Shown here: piece after piece, positions 2,106 to 21,231 of the stretch | Layout: every line of letters starts with the position of its first letter | How positions within the stretch are numbered: position 1 is the first letter of the stretch | Origin: an uncultured Methanosarcinales archaeon | Lineage (GTDB): Archaea > Nanobdellota > Nanobdellia > Woesearchaeales > GW2011-AR9 | Length of the DNA stretch: 64,000 bases | NCBI GenBank assembly: GCA_964344235.1 | Contig: CAYFMJ010000002.1 | Location: 127,601-191,600, forward strand | Reading direction: 5' to 3' | The notes under the pieces: generated by a model | The model's database searches: none | The model's input: the letters and a program-made list of their open reading frames with translations, nothing else | Told to the model about the DNA's origin: nothing | Translations under genes and position numbers: made by a program

Positions 2106-3056
2106 GTGGCACGGAAAAAGAAGGTGGGTATAGCGTTAGGTTCTGGAGCAGCTCGAGGATTAGTTCACATTGGTGTGTTGAAAGAGTTGGAGAAGAGAGG
2201 GATTAAGCTGGATTATATTGCTGGCACGTCAATGGGGGCTGTGATTGGGGCGTTGTATGCATCTGGTAAAACTCCTAAAGAGTTGGAAGAGATTGCTCAG
2301 ACAACTGATTGGAAAAGTATTGTTGATTTTACAATTCCTAAACGCGGTTTGTTGAAGGGAGAGTTAGTTGAGAAGAAATTGCGGTCATTGTTAGGTGGGA
2401 AGTCGTTCGGTCGTTTGAAAGTTCCGTTGCAAGTTGCTGCGTATGATATGACAAAGAATGAACCAGTAGTATTTTCAAGGGGAGATGTTGCACGGGCAGT
2501 GCGGGCATCGAGTTCTATTCCTGGGATTTTTTCACCGGTAAGAATTAAAGGGAGTTCATATGTGGATGGGGTGTTAGTTAATCCAACGCCGTTTGATGTT
2601 GTTCGGGAGATGGGTGCGAATGTTGTGATAGCAGTTGATTTATATGATAAGGCTTCTAGTAGGAAAAGGGAAGAAGGGTATATGCGTGAGTTACGGGAGA
2701 AGTTTATTGTTGATGAATTGTTGAATGTGCGGAACTATTTATTCCCAAAACGGTGGCCCCGGTTTTTGCGTAATACTTTGTTGTGGTTGTTTGATAAAGT
2801 AATGTATCCTGCTCGCGTGATGAAGATTATGGCGGGAAGAGAGTTACCGGAGATTGCGAAAGTGATGTATAATTCGTTTGGGATAGTTGCGGATAATTTT
2901 GCAAAGGAACGGATGAAGAATGCTGATGTTGATATTATTGTGGCACCCACGTTTTCCCGTTTACAATGGTCAGATTTTGATAAAGTGGATGAGTTTGTTG
3001 CATTAGGAGAGAAATCGATGCAGAAAGAGATGAGGAAGCTTACGAAATTGCTTTGA
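2106..3056 (+). CDS. Patatin-like phospholipase
   Basis: GSGAARG glycine loop, GTSMG nucleophile elbow, YVDG catalytic Asp. Confidence 0.92.
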   Translation: MARKKKVGIALGSGAARGLVHIGVLKELEKRGIKLDYIAGTSMGAVIGALYASGKTPKELEEIAQTTDWKSIVDFTIPKRGLLKGELVEKKLRSLLGGKSFGRLKVPLQVAAYDMTKNEPVVFSRGDVARAVRASSSIPGIFSPVRIKGSSYVDGVLVNPTPFDVVREMGANVVIAVDLYDKASSRKREEGYMRELREKFIVDELLNVRNYLFPKRWPRFLRNTLLWLFDKVMYPARVMKIMAGRELPEIAKVMYNSFGIVADNFAKERMKNADVDIIVAPTFSRLQWSDFDKVDEFVALGEKSMQKEMRKLTKLL

Positions 3057-3492
3057 TTTGTTTCCTATCTTTATGTTTGACGTGGATTTTTTTACCGGTT
3101 GTTTTGTTTTGTAGAAAAATGTCTTTAGTTACCGATTTTACAATGTATTCTTCTCCTTGGTAGATGACGTTATCATCTTTTTTGAATGGGTGTTGTCGGA
3201 AGAGGATTGTTAATCTGTAGAGTTCTTTGTCTTTCTTTTTTGTGTGAAGCGTGGAAGTGATTGTTAATTCCCCACTGAAGTGTTTTTGGATAGCTTTGCC
3301 AACTTTTTTTGTGAGGTCATTACTTTTGGTGAAATAATCTTTGCCGTTTTTGAGTGTAGCTATTTTTGCAACACCTAATTTTAGTTTCATAATTTCTTTT
3401 TCTGCGAATTGGATGACTTCTTTGGAAACGTCTCTCAGTTGGAGAATGCATTCATAATAGTTTGATGCTTTATCTGTTTGGTAATCTGGCAT
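3040..3492 (-). CDS. NMD3-related protein (C-terminal NMD3-like region only)
   Basis: NYYECILQLR...KNGKDYF...TSTLH...LYRLTILFR resembles the archaeal NMD3 C-terminal part; start moved to ATG at 3492. Confidence 0.55.
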   Translation of the reverse strand: MPDYQTDKASNYYECILQLRDVSKEVIQFAEKEIMKLKLGVAKIATLKNGKDYFTKSNDLTKKVGKAIQKHFSGELTITSTLHTKKKDKELYRLTILFRQHPFKKDDNVIYQGEEYIVKSVTKDIFLQNKTTGKKIHVKHKDRKQIKAIS

Positions 3493-3517
3493 GAGGGTTA
3501 GAGTATTTTGTTGTTTT

Positions 3518-3799
3518 TTAATGTTTTGAATAAATATTATCATGATGATCTAATTTGTAAAAAATTATTTTATCTTCTGATTTGATATGCTTAAAAATTA
3601 AAACAAAAGAACTTCTAATATGAACTCTTTTAAACTCTTGCAATGGTTTTCTTAAATTTTTGTAGTGATTCACATCAATACAATTAAGAATCTCTTCAAA
3701 TTTTTTCATCACTGATTCATACAGTGGTTTATTTTTTTTAGAAATCTTACTCAACATTTTCTTTAGGTCATCTTCTATTAAAAATTCACGCATTTTCAA
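3518..3799 (-). CDS. RelE/ParE-family toxin
   Basis: 93 aa, basic; YKNLRKPLQEFKRVHI..SFVLIF...KLDHHDNIY pattern; downstream of a small antitoxin-like gene. Confidence 0.8.
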   Translation of the reverse strand: MKMREFLIEDDLKKMLSKISKKNKPLYESVMKKFEEILNCIDVNHYKNLRKPLQEFKRVHIRSSFVLIFKHIKSEDKIIFYKLDHHDNIYSKH

Positions 3800-4031
3800 T
3801 ATCTGACCTTAAAGAATCCATACTCTTATATTTTTTGAAATCTCCTTTCTTTTCTAGATTTTTTATATCCTTAATAAATTCTGGTTTTAATTGAGGTTCA
3901 AGTAAATCTTCTTCAAACCTATCAATTACGAAATTAATGGCTTCAGATTTGGTTTTAAATCCATATTTACCTTTAACAATAGTTAGAACTCTATCCTCAT
4001 ATTCTCCAATATTTATTATCGCTTGGACCAT
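3786..4031 (-). CDS. Putative antitoxin (DUF2683-like ribbon-helix-helix)
   Basis: MVQAIINI...VLTIVKGKYGFKTKSEAIN...EPQLKPEF; overlaps the toxin start. Confidence 0.75.
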   Translation of the reverse strand: MVQAIINIGEYEDRVLTIVKGKYGFKTKSEAINFVIDRFEEDLLEPQLKPEFIKDIKNLEKKGDFKKYKSMDSLRSDIENA

Positions 4032-4245
4032 TTTATTATTTTTTATAATGATAAATAATGTTTTATTATATAATCTTTTCTGTTTTTTCTAAGAGGTCTA
4101 ATAAAAAGATTTGGGTGAAAAATTTCTGGGTGGGTTCTTGCCGCGAACTTCTTCAAAAAAATTGTTTCGGTCAATTCTTTTCGGTTTGTGATTAGTAAAC
4201 GATCGAATTCTAAACTCTTTCGTAATGTTTATTAAGTTATGGTAA

Positions 4246-4548
4246 TTGGTTTCACAAATGAACTCAGAGGTGGCTTCTAGAATACGTTATGCTGGTTGCG
4301 ATCGTTCTATCTTCCCATATATTTTTTATGAAGATGCAGTTGCGGGTTTAGTTGGTGCATCGGACCATTTTGAAGAAGAGTTTCACGTTAGGAGAATAAG
4401 AGAAGGATATATCCAGATGAGTCGGAATTATATTCTTGATGCGCGGGGACTTGTATTGCCCAGACGAGACCCTTTGCTTGAAGAAGATACGCCTGCATGG
4501 AGTTATGTTATGGATGAGTCAGAGAGGGTTCAGAAGGATTCTCAGTAA
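4246..4548 (+). CDS. Hypothetical protein
   Basis: 100-aa ORF downstream of an AT-rich promoter-like tract; no recognised motif. Confidence 0.45.
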   Translation: MVSQMNSEVASRIRYAGCDRSIFPYIFYEDAVAGLVGASDHFEEEFHVRRIREGYIQMSRNYILDARGLVLPRRDPLLEEDTPAWSYVMDESERVQKDSQ

Positions 4549-4728
4549 GTGTTACGCTTTCGGGTTTGAGGTATTAACATATTGCAAAATGAGCATTGAT
4601 TTTTCTTTCTCAGTGGGTAATTGTACAAATACACTGTTCTGACTTATAAAACTAATCTCTTCTTCTTGTCAAACCAACCCTACTTGGGAGTAACAAACTT
4701 TAAATATGTGGGCTAATTTTTATCCAAA

Positions 4729-5349
4729 ATGTCTTGTAGGCTTGAGGTAGACCTATTACATCCTGATGAAGAGATTTTTGCAGAGGGGACTAAGTGGTTG
4801 AAAGAAATTGTGGAAGATATGTTGGGCTTTATTCCAGACATCCATGTTCCTCGCCCACTTATACAACCAAATTATCTTGAAGTATCTTACATCCAGGGGC
4901 GCCCGTCAACAATTTCTCTTCACCGAGTCGACCTTGACTATTCTAATGTGACAGCTCTCCTACAGGATAATTTAGAGGATTATGATGATATTAGAGAGGC
5001 CCTTGATGCTCTAGAAGATGACCCTCCTGCTACTACATGGGTATTTGAATTTTCTGCACAAAGAGGGATACTCAAGCGAGCATCGTATCACCGAGGCGAT
5101 TGGAGGGGATCTGATTTTAGGTGGCCTGATACAAGAGAAATGCTGGTTGGAGCAAGAGATATGGGTGCTGTGCCCCATGTTGTTAGGGAAGCATACAAAA
5201 CTGTTGATCGTGTTGCAGATAAACTTCAAAAACTTTCAGCCGATGGATCATTACTAACAACACATCGGGACAAGTGTGCTCAGATGCTTAGATATATGCA
5301 GAAATTGTGCGATAAAGATGTAAGAGTAGGTTTTCTTGCATCACTTTAG
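4729..5349 (+). CDS. Hypothetical protein
   Basis: 206-aa ORF, TTTAAATA about 25 nt upstream; no recognised motif. Confidence 0.6.
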   Translation: MSCRLEVDLLHPDEEIFAEGTKWLKEIVEDMLGFIPDIHVPRPLIQPNYLEVSYIQGRPSTISLHRVDLDYSNVTALLQDNLEDYDDIREALDALEDDPPATTWVFEFSAQRGILKRASYHRGDWRGSDFRWPDTREMLVGARDMGAVPHVVREAYKTVDRVADKLQKLSADGSLLTTHRDKCAQMLRYMQKLCDKDVRVGFLASL

Positions 5350-5485
5350 ATAAAACTTTTGAAAGTAATATTGAGGGAGGATTCATCTCTTTTGTAAATA
5401 GTCATACTAAGAATAAATACATTGTTTTTAGCCTAAACCGTTTATAGAGAATAATTTATACAGAGAAATTTAAGAGAATTATACC

Positions 5486-5695
5486 TTACTCTTGTGGCTG
5501 ATCACTCTCTAGCTCAAGTTTCACAATGACAGCTCTAAGGTCATCTCCCACCCTTTGCCAATCTCGGCCTATGGCTTTCATAGTGTCTTCTAACCGTATG
5601 GTCTCGTAGGTAAGGGGTTCAGGAAATAATGTTATGTTGGAAGCAACCTGGTAGATTACTTGTGCCCCCCTCTTAATGTATTCGATTACTCCCAT
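5486..5695 (-). CDS. Small hypothetical protein
   Basis: 69 aa with a D..AI..DW..VG.DL helical motif. Confidence 0.5.
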   Translation of the reverse strand: MGVIEYIKRGAQVIYQVASNITLFPEPLTYETIRLEDTMKAIGRDWQRVGDDLRAVIVKLELESDQPQE

Positions 5696-5854
5696 TTGGA
5701 TCAGGAGGGAGGAATACTATTTAAGAATTTCTCAAAAAACAATTCTGTGTGGGATGAATATCCCTCTAGGATTCACTCAATTACACATAAACCTCTAAAT
5801 CATTCATAAAAATATAATGAAGTTTTCACTTATAAAAATATTGTAGATAACCCC

Positions 5855-6238
5855 TCAAATACTATCAAACCATTCTGAAAATGACTGAGGGATCTCTGCT
5901 CCATTAAATTTTCCATTCTCATAAACTGCCCACGATCCACTCCATCTCCAACCGTTAGACCAATCAAAGTGTTCTACTAAGAAAGGGTCAGACATTTTAG
6001 TTCCAATTTCCTGTCTGGAGAATATTTTTGTGATTGTCCAGCTATTAGAACCTGTTTGACCAATACAATATTTGTTTCCATAATATATAGACCACGCTAC
6101 ACTTTCACAAAGGCGAGGATCATATCTATTCCCAGGAGTGCCTACTTCACTAACAACTTTTCCAACTCTACTCATCAGGTCTTCTACTTCTTTGCGTAAG
6201 TGCAGTTTTGTGGGTTTAGATATTCTTCTCTCTTCCAT
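5855..6238 (-). CDS. Hypothetical protein
   Basis: 127-aa ORF, Trp-rich C-terminus. Confidence 0.55.
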   Translation of the reverse strand: MEERRISKPTKLHLRKEVEDLMSRVGKVVSEVGTPGNRYDPRLCESVAWSIYYGNKYCIGQTGSNSWTITKIFSRQEIGTKMSDPFLVEHFDWSNGWRWSGSWAVYENGKFNGAEIPQSFSEWFDSI

Positions 6239-6323
6239 AGTCTTTCCAATAAACTTTAACTGTTATTTTTTTGTCCTCCTTTTGAGGACAACATTTATAA
6301 ATGCACATTTTTAATGTGGACCT

Positions 6324-7058
6324 ATGATTCAAGCTTTAGAAGAAGCAGGACTAACTAAAAATGAAATTACAGCCTACACCGCATTATTAGAGTTGGGGAC
6401 TTCAGCTGCTGGTACTCTTACAAAAAAAACAAGAATGCATCGCTCTCGTGTTTATGAGGCATTAGATCGGTTGATATCTAAAGGGCTTGTTTCTCACAAG
6501 ATCAAAGGAAACGTAAAACATTTTGAAGCACAAAGTCCTGAAATTATTATTGATATATTAGAAGAGAAAAAGAAGAAAGTACAAAGGGTTATTCCAAAGC
6601 TAAAGGCTTTGCAAATAGAGAAACCAGGACTTCAAAAAGCAAATGTTTTTGAAGGCTACAATGGTTTGAAAACTGTCATTGGAAATGCCATAAATATTCT
6701 TGACAAAGGAGAAGAAGTGTATATCTTTGGGGCGCGTTCAGGCCAAGATGCTAAGCCTGAAATATGGCGTATATTTTTCAAGCAAGTAAATAAAAATAGG
6801 TTGCAAAAAGGAATCAAGTATAAAGTTATCTTCAATGAAGATCTCAGAGGGAGTGAGGTTGCCACAACATTCAAAAATAGTAAACTTACTGAAATTAAAT
6901 ATATTAATCAACATACCCCTGCCGGAATTAATATTCATGGCGATAATGTAGCTATTGTAAATTGGGATAAATTGGTAACATTTCTTATTACTAGTAAAGA
7001 AGTTGCAGACTCGTTTAAGGAATACTTTAAAATTATGTGGAAGCAGGCTAAAAAATAG
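6324..7058 (+). CDS. TrmB-family transcriptional regulator
   Basis: GLTKNEITAYTALLELG...HRSRVYEALDRLISKGLV wHTH followed by an effector domain. Confidence 0.88.
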   Translation: MIQALEEAGLTKNEITAYTALLELGTSAAGTLTKKTRMHRSRVYEALDRLISKGLVSHKIKGNVKHFEAQSPEIIIDILEEKKKKVQRVIPKLKALQIEKPGLQKANVFEGYNGLKTVIGNAINILDKGEEVYIFGARSGQDAKPEIWRIFFKQVNKNRLQKGIKYKVIFNEDLRGSEVATTFKNSKLTEIKYINQHTPAGINIHGDNVAIVNWDKLVTFLITSKEVADSFKEYFKIMWKQAKK

Positions 7059-13670: not shown

Positions 13671-14441
13671 TTAAACTTGTTTTCTGTAACGTGGTTCTGG
13701 TTGGTTAGTGGCTGTTTTCTGAGCTTCGAATCTTTCGTATGCATCTCCAAGCCAAAGGATTAATTCCACTCCCATTGGTGCTCTGGAATCAACTCCGTAT
13801 GTTGCTTGAAGATATTCGAAGCAGTCTTGGCTTGGTTTCTTGAATACGGGACAACCTCTTGCTTTACCGTGACCAAGTCTCTTGGCAACTTCCATGTCTA
13901 AGCCTTTTGGCGAATCCCTATCAATTAAATCTATGTCAACAGGGTCCATATATGTTGGGCCTTCCATAACTCCAATAGCAGCTTTTGTTGCTCCGAGATG
14001 AGACAAACTTACATGTCCAAGGGTGGCTGTGGCCGTTAGATATTTTCTGGGTTCGCGAGCGTAGGTTTCTTTGAGTTTTAATGCCACTCTAACTGCAGTG
14101 AGGAGCCCTTTTTCCCCTATTGTTCTCAAAGTTGGAAACCCATGGGGAACTGCAACACGGCAATATGGGGAGGTTCGTACAACCAAGTCTACTTCTCGTA
14201 TTTTTTTATCAACGTATGTGGCGTGGTCTTGTTTGGTTATGAATTTCCACCAGGTCTGCACCATAGATGCTTCTAAAATTTCTCTTAGGCTTGTTCTGCT
14301 TTCTTTTGGAATTGGTTCCTGGCCGTTAACTGCAAGTTTATGTTCTTCCCACCAAATTCTAAATACATCGGTTAAACCTTGTTCATATGCTCTAAACCCA
14401 GCGGTTTGTTGTGTTGCGATGCTTGCATCGATTGAACCCAT
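13671..14441 (-). CDS. Hypothetical protein
   Basis: 256-aa ORF; no recognised motif. Confidence 0.6.
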   Translation of the reverse strand: MGSIDASIATQQTAGFRAYEQGLTDVFRIWWEEHKLAVNGQEPIPKESRTSLREILEASMVQTWWKFITKQDHATYVDKKIREVDLVVRTSPYCRVAVPHGFPTLRTIGEKGLLTAVRVALKLKETYAREPRKYLTATATLGHVSLSHLGATKAAIGVMEGPTYMDPVDIDLIDRDSPKGLDMEVAKRLGHGKARGCPVFKKPSQDCFEYLQATYGVDSRAPMGVELILWLGDAYERFEAQKTATNQPEPRYRKQV

Positions 14442-14543
14442 TTTTGCTTCAAATTGGCTTCTATTTAAATCACTATTGGTTAGTGGTGGCCGTATTCTCT
14501 ATTTTTAGAAAATCTTTAAATATACACTCTTTAGCAAGCCATT

Positions 14544-14639
14544 ATGACATCATTTTATATCCATACGTATGGTTGCTCAGCGAATGTGGCGGACTCTGAA
14601 CAGATGAAGACCCACTCCCCACCGGTCAAGTCCGGATAA
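14544..14639 (+). pseudogene. Orphaned 5' end of mtaB (31-codon mini-ORF)
   Basis: Manual translation MTSFYIHTYGCSANVADSEQM-KTHSPPVKSG*; residues 10-21 are identical to those of the intact gene at 15630. Confidence 0.88.
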
Positions 14640-14641
14640 AG

Positions 14642-14649
14642 TATATAAA
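14642..14649 (+). promoter_or_regulatory. TATA-box candidate for the LAGLIDADG gene
   Basis: TATATAAA right after the mini-ORF stop, about 40 nt upstream of ATG 14689. Confidence 0.5.
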
Positions 14650-14688
14650 CAATTTCTTAGAATATTTTTGTTCATCAAAGGGGTTGAG

Positions 14689-15633
14689 ATGAACAAAAAA
14701 TATCACTTCGAAATTGAACAAATTCTTGAGCTAGCAGATTTGTATGAGCTGGGAGTTCCTTTGAGAACCATTGCAAAAATTCATGGAATGAACTCTGCTA
14801 CTCTTTGGCATAGACTCAAAAAGTATGAAGAACAAGAATTATTTCAGTTTAGGTCACGCTCTGAAACAGTCTTAATGACCTTGTCGAAGAGTAGAACTAG
14901 CCCAAAAGGAGAAAAAACCAAGCGAGTTAAGGATTGGTTTAAGAATTTTGGAAGAGAAGGGATACTAGATATTCTTACTGTGTTTCTTCTTGTTGAAGCC
15001 TCAGCTGATTATAAGTATGGAATGATAAGACTGACTAATTCTGATGAAACACTACTTCAAATATTTACAGACATACTCTTATTACTTAACTTGGAACCAA
15101 GACAAACAATCGATTCGAGAAATAATTTGCGAGTTGTTTTTAGTAGGAATTCTAGAACTCGGAAAGTGTTAGATGAAATTTATGTAAGAACTCCCACTAC
15201 CAAACACCAACCACGGAGGGGCACCGAAAATTGGGAAATGTATTTGAAGACAACGCAACCCAATTTGCTTTGGTTGTATGGTCGATCGAGAAAATTAATT
15301 GAACTGTGTTTTCGAATCGCAATGTCCTGTGATGGTTCCGTTTTTAGGAGCAGGGGTATTAAGCATCTCCCCGATAGACCACAATTAACCCTAGTCTGTT
15401 TTCATCCGCTATTACTTTTACAATGGAAAGAGATAGCTAGCCTAATTGGACTCAACATGAATATCTCGGGGAAAAGAATTCGATCCAGGAGTATCGAAAC
15501 TTCACGCAAATTTTTAAAAATGGGTGCCTTTTTAGAAGGTGTGAGGATATCCTCCAAAGGATCAAAACAATTTCGGGGAATAGAGAAAAATACCCGGTTG
15601 AATGATTTATTGAATACATATGATTTAAGATGA
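14689..15633 (+). mobile_element. Free-standing LAGLIDADG-type homing endonuclease with N-terminal HTH
   Basis: HTH (LRTIAKIHGMNSATLWHRL); two degenerate motifs (LTVFLLVEAS..IRLTNSDETLLQIF and FRIAMSCDGSV); ATGA overlap with mtaB. Confidence 0.68.
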
Positions 15634-16910
15634 CAAATGTATATTTTTTTACACAGGGATGTAGTGCTAATGTTGCTGACTCAGAACAGATGGCAGGATT
15701 ACTGGAGCAAGCTAAATTTAGCATAGTTAACAGAATTCAAGAAGCACATGTTATTGTTATGAATTCGTGTTCAGTTAAATCACCTTCTGAATCTATGTTT
15801 TTCAAAACTTTGGAACAATTTAAGCAAGAACATCCGCATAAATTAATTGTGGTGGCTGGATGTATCCCAGAGGCTGATCCACGGAAGTTTAAAGAGTATT
15901 CAGTTGTTGGTACACAAAGCATTCATCATATCGTGCAGGTAGTGGAAGAAACACTGAATGATAATGTTTTACAGATTCTAGGAAATGAAGAAGTGCCACC
16001 ATTGGATATGCCGAAAGTGCGAAAGAATCCTGTTGTAGAAATTATTCCAATTAATAGAGGTTGTTTGGGAGCATGTACATTTTGTAAAACGAAACAAGCA
16101 CGGGGGAATTTGATCTCTTACTCTGTTGATGAAATAGTTGATGTTGCTCAAAAAGCGTTATCAGAAGGAGTGAAAGAGATTTGGTTAACTTCACAGGATA
16201 CATTTTGTTACGGTTTTGATATTGGGACAGATATTGTGGAGTTGCTCAATGAGTTGGTTAAGTTAGATGGTGATTTCTTTATTCGTGTGGGAATGGGTAA
16301 CCCAGATCATATGCCGAAAGTGCAGGAGGGGTTAATTGAGGTGTATAAACATCCGAAGATTTTCAAGTTTTTGCATTTACCATTACAAGCAGGTCATAAT
16401 TATACTCTGCAGCAGATGCGTCGGAGGTATACAGTGCAGCAATTTAGAGATACAGTCGATGCATTTAGGAAAGCGATTCCTGAAATTAATTTGATGACTG
16501 ATATTATTGTGGGGTATCCAACAGAAAATGAAGATCATTTCTGGGGAACGTTGCAAGCTGTTAGACGAGTAACGCCAGATTCAATTAATATTTCACGGTT
16601 CTGGCCACGGCCAGGTACGCCTGCTGCTGAATTAAAACCGTTAGATGGTGGAGAGGTAAAGAAACGATCAACAGTGATAACAGATATTTTTCATAATATA
16701 TCTACCCTGCAAAATGAACGATGGAAAGGTTGGGAAGGTTCTGTGTTAATTGATGAGAAAGGAAAGGATGGTCAATGGATTGGTCGGAATTATTGTTATA
16801 AACCAGTGATTGTTGAAGGGGATTTTAATTTAGGTGATTCAGTTAAAGTTCGGATTGTGAAAACTGGATTATTTGATTTACGGGGGGAAGTAGTGAATGG
16901 TACAGCGTGA
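15630..16910 (+). CDS. mtaB: tRNA methylthiotransferase, MtaB/CDKAL1-like
   Basis: TQGCSAN, NSCSVK, VAGC, GCLGACTFC radical SAM motif, TRAM domain. Confidence 0.93.
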   Translation: MTNVYFFTQGCSANVADSEQMAGLLEQAKFSIVNRIQEAHVIVMNSCSVKSPSESMFFKTLEQFKQEHPHKLIVVAGCIPEADPRKFKEYSVVGTQSIHHIVQVVEETLNDNVLQILGNEEVPPLDMPKVRKNPVVEIIPINRGCLGACTFCKTKQARGNLISYSVDEIVDVAQKALSEGVKEIWLTSQDTFCYGFDIGTDIVELLNELVKLDGDFFIRVGMGNPDHMPKVQEGLIEVYKHPKIFKFLHLPLQAGHNYTLQQMRRRYTVQQFRDTVDAFRKAIPEINLMTDIIVGYPTENEDHFWGTLQAVRRVTPDSINISRFWPRPGTPAAELKPLDGGEVKKRSTVITDIFHNISTLQNERWKGWEGSVLIDEKGKDGQWIGRNYCYKPVIVEGDFNLGDSVKVRIVKTGLFDLRGEVVNGTA

Positions 16911-16951
16911 TGAAGCGAGATTATCTCTTGATGATACTGTAGGGGCTCCCA

Positions 16952-17248
16952 GTGTTGAGAACTCTTTCAACAAGGAAAGCTAAATGGGGTTTTGCTCTTA
17001 CAACTATGGTTGCTGCATTTTATGTAGGAGATTCAAATCCAGATGTTGTTTCATTACCTCAAAATGCTTGGGAATATTTGCTTGCTGGCGTTCCTGCCGT
17101 TGGTACTGTGATTTCGTCTGGACTTGTAAATGGTCGCTATGCTTCACGCCAGGATTTTGAAACAATGTTTTCGGAAGGTCTTGCAAAAGGAACGAAATTA
17201 GCAGTTTTTAGTGCAATGCTTGGTTATGCCGCTGGATCTTTCTTCTAA
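16952..17248 (+). CDS. Small hypothetical membrane protein
   Basis: 98 aa with 2-3 hydrophobic segments. Confidence 0.5.
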   Translation: MLRTLSTRKAKWGFALTTMVAAFYVGDSNPDVVSLPQNAWEYLLAGVPAVGTVISSGLVNGRYASRQDFETMFSEGLAKGTKLAVFSAMLGYAAGSFF

Positions 17249-20397: not shown

Positions 20398-20577
20398 CCC
20401 CTCTTAGTTTAGCTTGGCTAGAACGCTCCGCTGTGTGTTCTTAGGAAACTGAGAACAGGCGAGAGATAAGTTCACTGTTGGACTAAGCCTTTAGGGCTCT
20501 GGATGAAATACAGCCAGTGGGGACGGAGAGACATCTTCGGATGCTTCAAATCCCCGGTTCAAATCCGGGAGAGGGGA
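20398..20577 (+). tRNA. tRNA-Tyr(GUA) with 3 introns: 35/36 (20435-20463), 37/38 (20466-20522), 45/46 (20531-20549)
   Basis: C1:G72 and A73 (archaeal Tyr identity). Strict BHBs: CGCU/GGCG for intron 1, GGAG/CUUC for intron 3. Splicing restores the loop CU-GUA-GA. Confidence 0.8.
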
Positions 20578-21231
20578 CTCCGAAGGCAGGGTGTGCGTTC
20601 TCACCCTTGCCTTCACATATTTTTCAATTTTTTCTTGTTTTCTAACACAATAAAAACCAATTTCTTTGTAGAACTTTTCTATGTCTTTGATCACAATTGC
20701 GAAAACATTTCTTTTTGCACCAAATCCCGATTTAATAGTGTTCTCTATTCCGAATTCAGAGATCATTTTTTGTACTTGTTTTAGGCCTTTGAAATTGATT
20801 GAGTAGAGTCTTAAAATTAATCTTCTTCCTTCTGGGATTACACTCCCCTCGTCGTCGTATAGGGCTTTTAAGAACTCACGCTTGATGCTTTTACTAGCTT
20901 CTATAATTTCTTTTGGAACGGTCCAAGTCCTAGAGAAGTAATCACAGTAACTCTTAAGATCTTCATATGCTAATTTTGACCTAACTCTTGCGTAAGGAAG
21001 AAGCTTGCCCGTTTTTCCGGATGGCTTGAGTGCAACAACCGGTTTTAGCCCATAAACATTGTCTAAGTCATCAACAAACTGTTGTAGTAATTCTGGGTCT
21101 GTGATGTCATATTTAATGTTGTAATCAGTTCGGCACTTGTAAGCACAACCATCGCCAATCAAGTGAGCGATTAGCCTTGCTTTAGCTTCTGTTAACTCTT
21201 TGAAGCCGGGTTTTAGTCTCTTGATTCTCAT
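20491..21231 (-). mobile_element. Free-standing double-motif LAGLIDADG homing endonuclease, convergent on tRNA-Tyr
   Basis: LIAHLIGDG and FLKALYDDEGSV motifs; LYSINFKGLKQV block; last ~30 codons are antisense to tRNA-Tyr. Confidence 0.88.
20582..20614 (+). other. 12-bp hairpin immediately 3' of tRNA-Tyr
   Basis: GAAGGCAGGGTG / CACCC(T)TGCCTTC with an 8-nt loop. Confidence 0.6.

What the first reader, a model, noticed from the sequence alone, without database searches (positions are those of the whole stretch)
14544..15692. Homing endonuclease that replaced the 5' end of mtaB with a recoded copy
Seen in sequence: the order is [abandoned mtaB start MTSFYIHTYGCSANVADSEQM, broken right after EQM] - [own TATA] - [HTH + LAGLIDADG-like ORF] - [intact mtaB starting MTNVYFFTQGCSANVADSEQM, ATGA-coupled]. 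In the shared 12 codons (14571-14606 vs 15657-15692) the protein is identical, but 7 codons differ, all synonymously. Inference: this intron-less, intein-less selfish element cuts the conserved Fe-S-binding GCSAN region, inserts, and rescues the host gene with a recoded, cleavage-immune 5' fragment. Gene-fragment-carrying endonucleases are known from fungal mitochondria and phages; I do not know of this arrangement in an archaeal chromosome.
Basis: partly seen in the sequence, partly recalled or inferred. Interest (0 to 1): 0.86.

Follow-up and report, generated by a model that had tools for sequence, protein, structure and literature searches.

The report
Homing endonuclease carrying a spare gene start
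A selfish DNA-cutting gene has inserted about 21 codons into an essential-looking tRNA-modification gene (mtaB) of a tiny DPANN archaeon and repairs the damage by carrying its own replacement start of that gene, a trick known from fungal mitochondria that I did not find described for archaeal chromosomes.

Summary
The layout is a 21-codon mtaB stub with the native promoter (14544-14606), then a 314-aa ORF (14689-15633), then intact mtaB (15630-16910) overlapping the ORF stop. The last 12 codons of stub and gene give the same peptide, but 7 differ synonymously.

The ORF folds as an N-terminal HTH plus a double LAGLIDADG core, and both motifs keep an acidic residue.

The same layout occurs in 7 other element lineages from independent assemblies:
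- All abut the mtaB start, and 6 of the 7 have a stub upstream.
- All 22 ORF-less mtaB loci have one 5' copy, including the closest relative found (76% identical, same synteny).
- ORF-bearing alleles fall in at least three separate supported mtaB clades.
- Each stub is closer to ORF-less alleles of its own host clade than to its own replacement copy, and the differences are mostly synonymous. This points to repeated recent invasions.

Distant family members show the same duplication at a GTPase 5' end and at three 3' ends.

Not shown: cleavage, the target site, and immunity of the new copy. "Recoded" is most simply a foreign allele.

The closest known case is the fungal mitochondrial mobile ORF that carries a foreign C-terminus.

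The parts
14515..14525 (+). TATA-like box (CTTTAAATATA) of the native mtaB promoter, left attached to the stub
   Evidence: Read. ORF-less alleles carry a similar TTTATAAA/TTTTAAA box at the same distance, about 25-35 nt before their ATG (up60 column). Promoter function is inferred, not tested.
14544..14606 (+). Displaced native 5' end of mtaB (21 codons, MTSFYIHTYGCSANVADSEQM)
   Evidence: UPF0004 E 8.7e-5. N-terminus HMM E 2e-14. 19 of 21 residues identical to the sister ORF-less allele L012, with 9 synonymous and 2 non-synonymous codon differences. It has the N-terminus type of the nearest relatives.
14607..14640 (+). Left end of the insert: a 34-nt segment of 56% G+C that ends the stub's frame (KTHSPPVKSG, stop)
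   Evidence: Composition (window 39% G+C). Partly shared with the junction in L003. Origin unknown.
14638..14651 (+). TATA-like box (AAAGTATATAAACA), possible own promoter of the endonuclease gene
   Evidence: Read. Position fits a start about 25-30 nt downstream. Inferred only.
14665..14699 (+). Perfect 12-bp hairpin enclosing the GGGG Shine-Dalgarno-like run, with the ORF's ATG in its 3' arm
   Evidence: Inverted repeat I6. Free energy -12.2 kcal/mol, z -2.7, 3 of 200 shuffles as good. The equivalent U-run/A-run pairing in the four other short-form elements is weak (z -0.8 to -1.5). The hairpin is seen in the sequence. Any role in translation is not shown.
14689..15633 (+). Free-standing endonuclease gene: N-terminal three-helix HTH (about residues 7-47) plus a double-motif LAGLIDADG core (about residues 78-280)
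   Evidence: AlphaFold2 model with two alpha-beta-beta-alpha-beta-beta-alpha units. All top Foldseek PDB hits are LAGLIDADG proteins: I-Tsp061I E 1.6e-5, the I-OnuI family, I-LtrI, WhiA. 117 homologous cluster representatives.
14986..15009 (+). First LAGLIDADG motif, LLVEASAD (residues 100-107). E103 aligns with the Asp of the family's LLTDG
   Evidence: Alignments A1 and A2; positions.
15322..15339 (+). Second LAGLIDADG motif, MSCDGS (residues 212-217). D215 aligns with D/E in all homologues
   Evidence: Alignments A1 and A2; positions.
15630..15692 (+). Replacement 5' end of mtaB carried by the insert (21 codons, MTNVYFFTQGCSANVADSEQM). Its start codon overlaps the endonuclease stop (ATGA) and no promoter space lies before it
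   Evidence: It differs from the stub at 21 nt (8 synonymous, 5 non-synonymous codons). Its V-x-F-x-T-Q type is shared by the other cassette-borne copies.
15630..16910 (+). Intact mtaB (archaeal/eukaryotic-type tRNA t6A37 methylthiotransferase)
   Evidence: TIGR01578 E 1.4e-125 over the full length. UPF0004, Radical_SAM and TRAM domains present.

Best explanation
This is a mobile, intron-less and intein-less homing-endonuclease cassette. It sits inside the coding sequence of mtaB, about codon 21, in a Woesearchaeota-like DPANN archaeon.

The cassette runs from about 14607 to 15692. It holds a short junction segment, a probable promoter, a monomeric HTH-LAGLIDADG endonuclease gene, and a substitute copy of mtaB codons 1-21 with its own start codon. 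That copy is fused in frame to the rest of the host gene. Insertion therefore does not inactivate mtaB. The native start and promoter remain upstream as a dead stub. The working gene must now be transcribed together with the endonuclease gene, and is probably translated by coupling to it.

Inferred mechanism: the enzyme cuts ORF-less mtaB alleles near the conserved 5' region. The break is repaired from an ORF-bearing allele. The mtaB body serves as the right homology arm and the stub as the left arm, so the recipient keeps its own 5' end as the new stub.

Shown here: the anatomy, the fold, the retained acidic motif residues, presence/absence polymorphism at one site, host-like stubs, and the same trick in distant family members.

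Inferred only: cleavage, the target site, the repair route, promoter use, and immunity of the new copy.
For: **Enzyme**
- The model has two LAGLIDADG units plus an HTH.
- The 50 best listed PDB matches are nearly all LAGLIDADG endonucleases or maturases, a few being the related WhiA.
- D/E is kept at both motif ends in all 8 close and distant homologues aligned.
- The first-motif Asp (TDG) is conserved in at least 90% of the 32-member alignment.

**Same site, many lineages**
- Homologues at 58-62% identity (L002, L003, L006/L051, L007) and at 43-44% identity (L041, L044, L047) all end within 5 nt of, or overlap, the mtaB start.

**Duplicate only with the ORF**
- A second mtaB 5' copy lies upstream in 7 of 8 lineages.
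- It is found in 0 of 22 ORF-less loci.

**Patchy distribution**
- The ORF was found in only 4 of 201 sampled genomes of the order, G000 included. The three other matches are weak and sit at other loci.
- It was not found next to mtaB in any other sampled genus of the family.
- On the mtaB tree, built without the first 30 residues, WIN, L003 and L002 fall in three separate supported clades, each with ORF-less sisters. Starred branches force at least 3 changes, and 4 once the extra alleles are added.
- The closest mtaB found (P0123, 76% identity) is ORF-less in the same FtsY / aspartokinase / mtaB / AlaRS neighbourhood.

**Stub is native, working copy is foreign**
- Each stub is nearest in nucleotides to ORF-less alleles of its own host clade.
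- The differences are mostly synonymous: WIN against L012 9 synonymous and 2 non-synonymous, L051 against L020 13 and 2, L007 against L021 9 and 3, L002 against L017 9 and 3.
- Stub against own working copy gives 19-30 nt differences with 4-8 non-synonymous codons.
- The stub has the F-x-I-x-T type of the nearest relatives. All five short-form working copies share a V/I-x-F-x-T type.

**Family habit**
- Distant members (about 25-30% identity) flank duplicated gene ends.
- L009: 5' end of a YGR210/YchF-type GTPase, E 9e-22.
- L008: 3' end of a small gene, E 1.7e-8. L064: 3' end, E 1.2e-5. L058: 3' end of an actin gene.

**Not an intron**
- No Rfam family matches 14000-17000.
Against: - No cleavage, target site or transfer has been observed.
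- Only one copy exists in this genome. No ORF-less allele of the same species was found.
- Divergence among the endonucleases (59-65% identity) is about the same as among their host mtaB genes (51-65%). The long-form and short-form clades mirror two host groups. Much of the history could therefore be vertical.
- Disagreement between the endonuclease tree and the host tree inside the family rests on branches with 84-93% SH-aLRT support only.
- All eight endonuclease ORFs are intact, and none looks decayed as the classic gain-decay-loss cycle predicts.
- The last 9 nt before the junction are the same in stub and working copy, so immunity by sequence change is not evident.
- One lineage (L044) has no detectable stub.
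- No flank duplicate was detected at 13 other distant family members' loci.
- The Pfam LAGLIDADG_3 score is below the curated cut-off.
- The first motif has E-A in place of the family's D-G.
Confidence: 0.8

Rival explanations
1. Domesticated partner. The insertion happened once or a few times long ago. The HTH-LAGLIDADG protein is now kept as a DNA-binding regulator of the operon, as WhiA is, or simply because mtaB expression depends on reading through it. It no longer homes.
For: - WhiA, a LAGLIDADG-derived transcription factor with an HTH, is among the top structural matches.
- All eight ORFs are intact and tightly coupled to mtaB.
- Endonuclease and host divergence are similar, and the two deep clades mirror host groups.
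- The first motif in this copy reads E-A instead of D-G.
Against: - Acidic residues are kept at both motif ends in all aligned homologues, unlike WhiA.
- The stubs look recently functional. Their differences from host-clade alleles are mostly synonymous.
- ORF-bearing alleles are scattered among ORF-less sisters.
- Vertical descent would need many precise losses.
- Distant relatives sit at other genes with the same gene-end duplicates.
Confidence: 0.12
2. The rearrangement was not driven by this ORF. It arose either as an in-situ tandem duplication of the mtaB start with a later gene landing between the copies, or by integration of an element through a site-specific recombinase that leaves attL/attR copies of the gene end.
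For: - Duplicated gene ends flanking an insert are also the mark of integrase-borne elements.
- The two copies share the 9-nt GAACAGATG at their 3' ends.
- In L041 and L058 other cargo genes lie between the copies.
Against: - The 1.1-kb insert holds no gene other than the LAGLIDADG ORF.
- The two copies differ at 21 of 63 nt, and in 5 of the first 9 residues. The stub keeps the sister genome's sequence, which does not fit an in-situ duplicate.
- The 9-nt identity lies in three conserved codons (E, Q, M) and has about a 1 in 4 chance given codon choice.
- The association with this endonuclease clade holds in eight lineages with different upstream neighbours.
Confidence: 0.05
3. Assembly chimera. 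Two strains' mtaB starts were joined through an unrelated contig.
For: Public reads could not confirm the joints. Only two short low-depth contigs of one run lay on the stretch, at 14609-14786 and 14976-15139.
Against: - The same order (stub, ORF, mtaB) is found in independent assemblies from ENA, Logan, JGI and NCBI, for homologous but diverged elements.
- The ORF stop overlaps the mtaB start in frame-consistent fashion.
Confidence: 0.01

Closest known systems
Mobile ORF elements (mORFs) of fungal mitochondria that carry a foreign gene end: atp6 of Allomyces macrogynus; atp6, atp9, cox2 and nad3 of Glomus sp.; Rhizopus atp9; Mortierella cox2 (as described in PMC3630166)
   Same: - A free-standing LAGLIDADG (or GIY-YIG) gene is inserted in a conserved protein-coding gene.
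- It brings a substitute copy of the displaced gene end in frame.
- The native end remains beside it as an unexpressed remnant.
- The remnant resembles close relatives, while the inserted copy is more divergent with largely synonymous differences.
   Different: - There the C-terminal end is replaced, the endonuclease lies downstream, and it is often fused in frame.
- Here the 5' end and start codon are replaced, and the endonuclease lies upstream as a separate ORF whose stop overlaps the host start.
- Here the native promoter is left behind.
- The host is an archaeal chromosome rather than an organelle.
- The enzyme has an extra N-terminal HTH.
- Distant members of the same archaeal family (L008, L064, L058) do show the 3'-end version.
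[quoted passage not shown]
   Same: A partial foreign replacement of a gene's N-terminal part that leaves a duplicate, linked to homing.
   Different: It is reported there as a by-product of group I intron homing and co-conversion in an organelle. Here Rfam finds no intron and the ORF is free-standing. I read only the review's sentence, not the primary paper.
Free-standing homing endonucleases of T4-like phages (SegF/SegG, MobE: 'intronless homing'; PMC2790892, PMC2988022)
   Same: An endonuclease gene sits between or beside conserved genes, with no intron or intein. It spreads by cutting the ORF-less allele and co-converting flanking DNA.
   Different: The phage genes sit in intergenic space, belong to the GIY-YIG or HNH families, and do not carry a replacement gene end. 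Here the insertion point is inside the coding sequence.
Archaeal LAGLIDADG enzymes of rRNA introns and inteins (I-Tsp061I, I-DmoI, PI-type)
   Same: The fold is the same. The best structural match is I-Tsp061I. The archaeal host and the choice of a conserved target are also shared.
   Different: Those rely on RNA or protein splicing to spare the host gene. This one relies on a carried gene fragment. About 10% sequence identity.
WhiA (LAGLIDADG-derived transcription factor with HTH)
   Same: A LAGLIDADG scaffold combined with an HTH. It is a top structural match.
   Different: In WhiA the HTH is C-terminal and the catalytic acidic residues are lost (my own knowledge of the family, not tested here). 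Here the HTH is N-terminal and E103 and D215 are kept.

Membership tests
LAGLIDADG homing endonuclease, double-motif monomer | Two alpha-beta-beta-alpha-beta-beta-alpha domains in one chain | tested here: met
   DSSP of the model shows both units: H78-102 ... H155-167 and H201-215 ... H269-277. Foldseek probability is 1.00 to I-Tsp061I, I-OnuI, I-LtrI, I-AniI and I-SmaMI.
LAGLIDADG homing endonuclease, double-motif monomer | An acidic residue at the end of each LAGLIDADG helix | tested here: met
   E103 aligns with the D of LLTDG. D215 aligns with D/E in all 8 aligned homologues. Glu at this place also occurs in solved enzymes; the I-LtrI E29 and E184 entries appear. Geometry in the model was not measured.
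LAGLIDADG homing endonuclease, double-motif monomer | Pfam family score above the curated cut-off | tested here: not met
   LAGLIDADG_3 scores 18.8 bits against a cut-off of 22.5, E 0.002, and covers one motif only.
LAGLIDADG homing endonuclease, double-motif monomer | Site-specific cleavage of the ORF-less allele | not testable with these tools
   Needs the purified protein and target DNA.
Homing element (any class) | Presence/absence polymorphism at one homologous site, discordant with host phylogeny | tested here: met
   Eight ORF-bearing lineages sit at the same site. 22 ORF-less loci were examined. At least 3-4 changes are forced on the mtaB tree. Discordance between the endonuclease and host trees has only moderate support.
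Gene-end-replacing mobile ORF (fungal mitochondrial mORF type) | Endonuclease gene flanked by two copies of a host gene end, one in frame with the gene and one orphaned | tested here: met
Gene-end-replacing mobile ORF (fungal mitochondrial mORF type) | The orphaned copy groups with the host's relatives and the in-frame copy is foreign | tested here: met
   nucleotide distances; N-terminus types. The segments are short (13-26 codons), so each case alone is weak. Four of five short-form lineages agree and L003 is ambiguous.
Gene-end-replacing mobile ORF (fungal mitochondrial mORF type) | The C-terminal end is replaced and the endonuclease lies downstream of the gene | tested here: not met
   Here the 5' end is replaced and the endonuclease lies upstream. 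Distant family members L008, L064 and L058 do have the 3' version.
Intein | Endonuclease in frame within the host protein, flanked by Hint splicing blocks | tested here: not met
   It is a separate ORF with its own start and stop. No intein domain appears in Pfam.
Group I / group II intron with encoded endonuclease | Ribozyme structure around the ORF | tested here: not met
   No Rfam match at E up to 1 in 14000-17000. The working gene also has its own complete 5' end, so no splicing is needed.

The most novel reading that the evidence does not exclude
A whole family of archaeal free-standing HTH-LAGLIDADG endonucleases, in DPANN and probably an Asgard-like lineage, invades the ends of conserved protein-coding genes by carrying a replacement 5' or 3' gene end. 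The genes seen so far are mtaB, a YchF-type GTPase, actin and others.

This would be a third general way, beside introns and inteins, for homing genes to live inside cellular coding sequences. In the 5' version:
- the orphaned stub doubles as the left homology arm and is renewed at each invasion;
- the host gene loses its promoter and becomes dependent on the invader's transcription, which makes loss costly.
Probability: 0.5. Interest if true: 0.85.

Novelty: new variant of a known kind. Interest (0 to 1): 0.74.

Why it matters
Homing endonucleases are thought to survive in essential cellular genes only inside self-splicing introns or inteins. Outside those, they are known from phage intergenic regions and organelles. 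This case shows a different arrangement in archaeal chromosomes: the invader brings a spare gene end.

Why that is useful:
- It gives a natural, compact system of about 1.1 kb for studying how such elements choose sites, avoid self-cleavage and tie host gene expression to themselves.
- It explains otherwise puzzling short pseudo-starts and pseudo-ends next to conserved genes in DPANN genomes.
- It warns that the first or last 20-30 codons of such genes can have a different history from the rest.
- It offers new monomeric LAGLIDADG scaffolds with an added HTH, aimed at conserved coding sequence.

Tried and rejected
- **Public reads.** One DNA run held 14% of the sampled words. Two short contigs lay at 14609-14786 and 14976-15139. 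This gave no test of the joints, and no RNA holder was listed.
- **Rfam on 14000-17000.** No match, so there is no support for an intron.
- **Consensus RNA fold around the ORF start in 8 elements.** No common structure was found. Only the window's own hairpin stands out.
- **The search for related loci with the 32-member alignment.** With the 8-member alignment it returned only 3 GTDB-representative loci and 4 JGI loci, most being the same lineages already held.
- **Population-level dN/dS of the endonuclease.** Near-identical copies differ by 0-1 codons, so this was not informative.
- **Gene-end duplicates in distant family loci.** None was detected at L010, L055, L057, L060, L063, L065-L069 and L072 at the sensitivity used. 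L071 was not compared for lack of a clear ORF.
- **Second LAGLIDADG gene in the window (20494-21231, minus strand).** It is not a detectable paralogue (BLASTP E 0.4).
- **'Recoding for immunity'.** Not supported as stated. Synonymous differences of the same size separate the stubs from ordinary orthologues, and the 9 nt at the junction are unchanged.
Full report
**1. The observation**

- A 31-codon ORF starts at 14544. Its first 21 codons read MTSFYIHTYGCSANVADSEQM, and the frame then runs into unrelated, G+C-rich sequence and stops at 14639.
- A 314-aa ORF follows at 14689-15633.
- Its TGA overlaps the ATG of a 426-aa gene (15630-16910) that begins MTNVYFFTQGCSANVADSEQMAGLL.
- That gene is a full-length archaeal/eukaryotic-type tRNA t6A37 methylthiotransferase: TIGR01578 at E 1.4e-125, with UPF0004, Radical_SAM and TRAM domains.
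- The two 21-codon copies have 8 identical, 8 synonymous and 5 non-synonymous codons. The last 12 codons have 7 synonymous and no non-synonymous differences.
- The stub is recognisably an mtaB start: Pfam UPF0004 at E 8.7e-5, an HMM of mtaB N-termini at E 2e-14, and flank-to-flank peptide BLAST at E 5e-9.

**2. The ORF**

- Pfam gives only sub-threshold hits: LAGLIDADG_3 at E 0.002 and HTH_23 at E 0.004.
- An AlphaFold2 model built on 8 homologues (pLDDT 81, pTM 0.76) shows a three-helix N-terminal bundle and then two alpha-beta-beta-alpha-beta-beta-alpha units.
- Foldseek against the PDB returns LAGLIDADG proteins throughout. The archaeal intron enzyme I-Tsp061I is first (E 1.6e-5, target TM 0.63), followed by the I-OnuI family, I-LtrI, I-AniI, the bI3 maturase, PI-SceI and WhiA.
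- The two motif helices end in LLVEAS (E103) and MSCDGS (D215).
- In homologues the first motif reads LLTDG, and the second always has D or E.
- The scaffold and the acidic pair expected of an active enzyme are therefore present. Activity itself is untested.
- Rfam finds nothing between 14000 and 17000, and the ORF is not in frame with mtaB. It is neither an intron ORF nor an intein.

**3. Relatives: same site, with and without the ORF**

A search of 5.8 billion proteins found four homologues at 58-62% identity. An exhaustive representative search found 117 family members, three of them at 43-44% identity with an extra C-terminal winged-helix-like tail.

All seven of these, from ENA, Logan, JGI and NCBI assemblies, lie directly in front of mtaB. 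The ORF stop overlaps the mtaB start or lies within 5 nt of it. Their upstream neighbours differ.

An HMM of mtaB N-termini finds a second, orphaned mtaB start upstream of the ORF in 7 of the 8 lineages, window included.
- In L041 the orphaned start lies 3.4 kb upstream, with other genes in between.
- None was found in L044.
- The same HMM finds exactly one copy in each of 22 ORF-less mtaB loci taken from 18 genera of the same family and from other families of the order.
- Stubs end at profile positions 13, 19, 19, 22, 22, 26 and 27. The junction therefore clusters at the conserved D-S-E-x-M | A-G-L-L, just after the GCS motif. That motif holds the first cysteine of the N-terminal cluster-binding domain (established knowledge of the MiaB family, not tested here).

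**4. Is it mobile?**

- *Rarity.* The ORF was found in only 4 of 201 sampled genomes of the order, counting this one. The other three matches are weak (E 1e-11 to 1e-21), longer proteins at other loci.
- *Patchiness.* On an mtaB tree built without the first 30 residues, the ORF-bearing alleles WIN, L003 and L002 fall in three different supported clades, each with ORF-less sisters: WIN with L012 at 96/91, L003 in a 100/99 clade, and L002 with L020 at 95/74. Supported branches force at least 3 changes. With L051 and the three long-form alleles added, they force at least 4.
- *Closest relative.* The closest mtaB anywhere (P0123, 76% identity) is ORF-less and sits in the same FtsY / aspartokinase / mtaB / AlaRS neighbourhood. 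The sister genome L012 also has the aspartokinase-like gene upstream. The stub therefore marks the native position of the gene start.
- *Host-like stubs.* Each stub is nearer in nucleotides to ORF-less alleles of its own host clade than to the working copy beside it, and the differences are mostly synonymous. WIN against L012 has 9 synonymous and 2 non-synonymous codons, L051 against L020 has 13 and 2, L007 against L021 has 9 and 3, and L002 against L017 has 9 and 3. Stub against own working copy gives 19-30 nt differences with 4-8 non-synonymous codons. A fragment that had been dead since the family's ancestor would not keep such a pattern. The stubs were working gene starts until recently, which means separate, fairly recent insertions.
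- *Foreign working copies.* They are of another type. The window's nearest relatives almost all begin MT-x-F-x-I-x-T, like the stub. The five short-form working copies all begin MT-x-[VI]-[HY]-F-[IFV]-T.

Caveats:
- The segments are short, and L003 is ambiguous.
- Endonuclease divergence is about equal to host divergence.
- The long-form and short-form endonuclease clades mirror two host groups.
- Inside the family the endonuclease tree ((WIN, L002), (L003, L051)) disagrees with the host tree only on moderately supported branches.
- Long vertical stretches between transfers are therefore likely.

**5. A family habit**

Distant members (about 25-30% identity, 370-500 aa) sit at other genes.
- In L009 the order is: orphaned start [35 protein letters not shown], then the endonuclease, then an intact YGR210/YchF-type GTPase beginning [35 protein letters not shown] (E 9e-22).
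- In L008 and L064 the duplicated piece is the 3' end of the neighbouring gene, with the orphan beyond the endonuclease (E 1.7e-8 and 1.2e-5). This is the fungal arrangement.
- In L058 the last 16-20 codons of a eukaryote-like actin gene occur six times: once in the gene and five times as orphans spaced over 3 kb.
- No duplicate was detected at 13 other loci. Gene-end replacement is therefore frequent in the family but not universal, or my short-peptide search misses decayed orphans.

**6. How it most likely works**

Shown here:
- the cassette anatomy;
- a native TATA-like box that stays with the stub (14515-14525, the same place as in ORF-less alleles);
- no room for a promoter before the working mtaB.

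Inferred:
- a TATA-like box at 14638-14651 drives the endonuclease and mtaB together, possibly with read-through from the native promoter;
- mtaB is translated by coupling at ATGA;
- the enzyme cuts ORF-less alleles in the 5' region, and repair copies the cassette. The mtaB body is the right arm and the stub is the left arm, which would explain why each stub is host-like.

A perfect 12-bp hairpin (14665-14699, -12.2 kcal/mol, z -2.7) encloses the Shine-Dalgarno-like run, and its 3' arm holds the ORF's ATG. Control of homing-endonuclease translation by such hairpins is known in phage, from my own knowledge. Here it is only a lead, and the equivalent pairing in relatives is weak.

Immunity is unexplained. 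The 9 nt before the junction are identical in both copies, and only 2 of the last 18 nt differ. If the site spans the junction, the new copy would not obviously escape. The strong differences lie in codons 3-9.

**7. Comparison with what is known**

- The nearest described system is the mobile ORF of fungal mitochondria that carries a foreign C-terminal gene end. Examples are Allomyces atp6, Glomus atp6/atp9/cox2/nad3, Rhizopus atp9 and Mortierella cox2. In those, the native end is left downstream and resembles close relatives (PMC3630166).
- A review also cites N-terminal duplication through intron mobility in Tremella mitochondria (PMC8393795).
- Phage 'intronless homing' shares the lack of a splicing element but not the carried gene end.
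- Searches for homing endonucleases in DPANN and in archaea returned rRNA-intron, intein and phage work. They returned no description of this arrangement. The searched library is partial, so this is absence of evidence only.
- I therefore rate it a new variant of a known kind: a mirror-image (5') form, in a cellular archaeal chromosome, with promoter displacement and translational coupling, belonging to a family that uses both ends.

**8. Earlier notes of this scan**

The taxon (DPANN, Woesearchaeota) comes from those notes and agrees with the names that sources give the closest mtaB proteins.

**9. Verdict**

- Confidence that this is a mobile endonuclease cassette with a carried 5' gene end is 0.8.
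- Interest is 0.74.

Noticed in passing
L058:431-6341: An actin gene with a eukaryote-type Pfam Actin match (E 4e-135) lies on the minus strand at 5202-6341 and is convergent with a family endonuclease (4001-5134). Its last 16-20 codons recur five more times on the same strand at 3406-3465, 2818-2880, 2174-2263, 1127-1216 and 431-475. Glyoxalase, AsnC-like, hydrolase and DinB genes lie between the copies. This looks like repeated invasions at one gene end.
   Followed up: partly
L009:109-3103 (minus strand): The same 5' layout occurs at another gene. The order is an orphaned start of a YGR210/YchF-type GTPase (about 3091-2969), then a 497-aa HTH-LAGLIDADG ORF (2823-1330), then the intact GTPase (1308-109). 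27 of 35 residues are shared between the two starts.
   Followed up: partly
L008:522-2273 and L064:440-2921: These show the 3'-end version of the trick. The last 14-19 residues of the gene beside the endonuclease are repeated just beyond the endonuclease gene. In L008 both genes are on the same strand. In L064 the endonuclease is convergent with its neighbour.
   Followed up: partly
L041:482-5245: In this long-form lineage the orphaned mtaB start (482-568, MKVFIKTFGCQANYADSEVLAGIL) lies 3.4 kb upstream of the endonuclease. Two unknown ORFs (262 and 260 aa) and a reverse transcriptase with an HTH_40 domain (2357-3940) lie in between. The mtaB here is also short, at 357 aa.
   Followed up: no
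window 20494-21231 (minus strand): A second free-standing LAGLIDADG gene (246 aa, Pfam LAGLIDADG_3 at E 6.7e-11) lies next to intron-rich tRNA genes. It shows no detectable similarity to the mtaB-linked ORF (BLASTP E 0.4).
   Followed up: partly
window 13671-14441 (minus strand): A 256-aa ORF without any Pfam or NCBIfam match lies between the aspartokinase-like gene and the mtaB stub. It has no counterpart at this place in the sister locus L012. In the closest relative's locus a DHDPS gene lies there instead. It is a second indel right beside the invaded gene start.
   Followed up: partly
window 14607-14640: A 34-nt stretch of 56% G+C, in a 39% G+C window, follows the stub directly. It is partly shared with the junction of L003 but not with the other short-form elements. 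Its origin is unknown.
   Followed up: no
L044:3850-4010: This is the only mtaB-linked lineage with no detectable orphaned start upstream of the endonuclease. The start may have decayed, been deleted, or lie beyond the stretch examined.
   Followed up: partly
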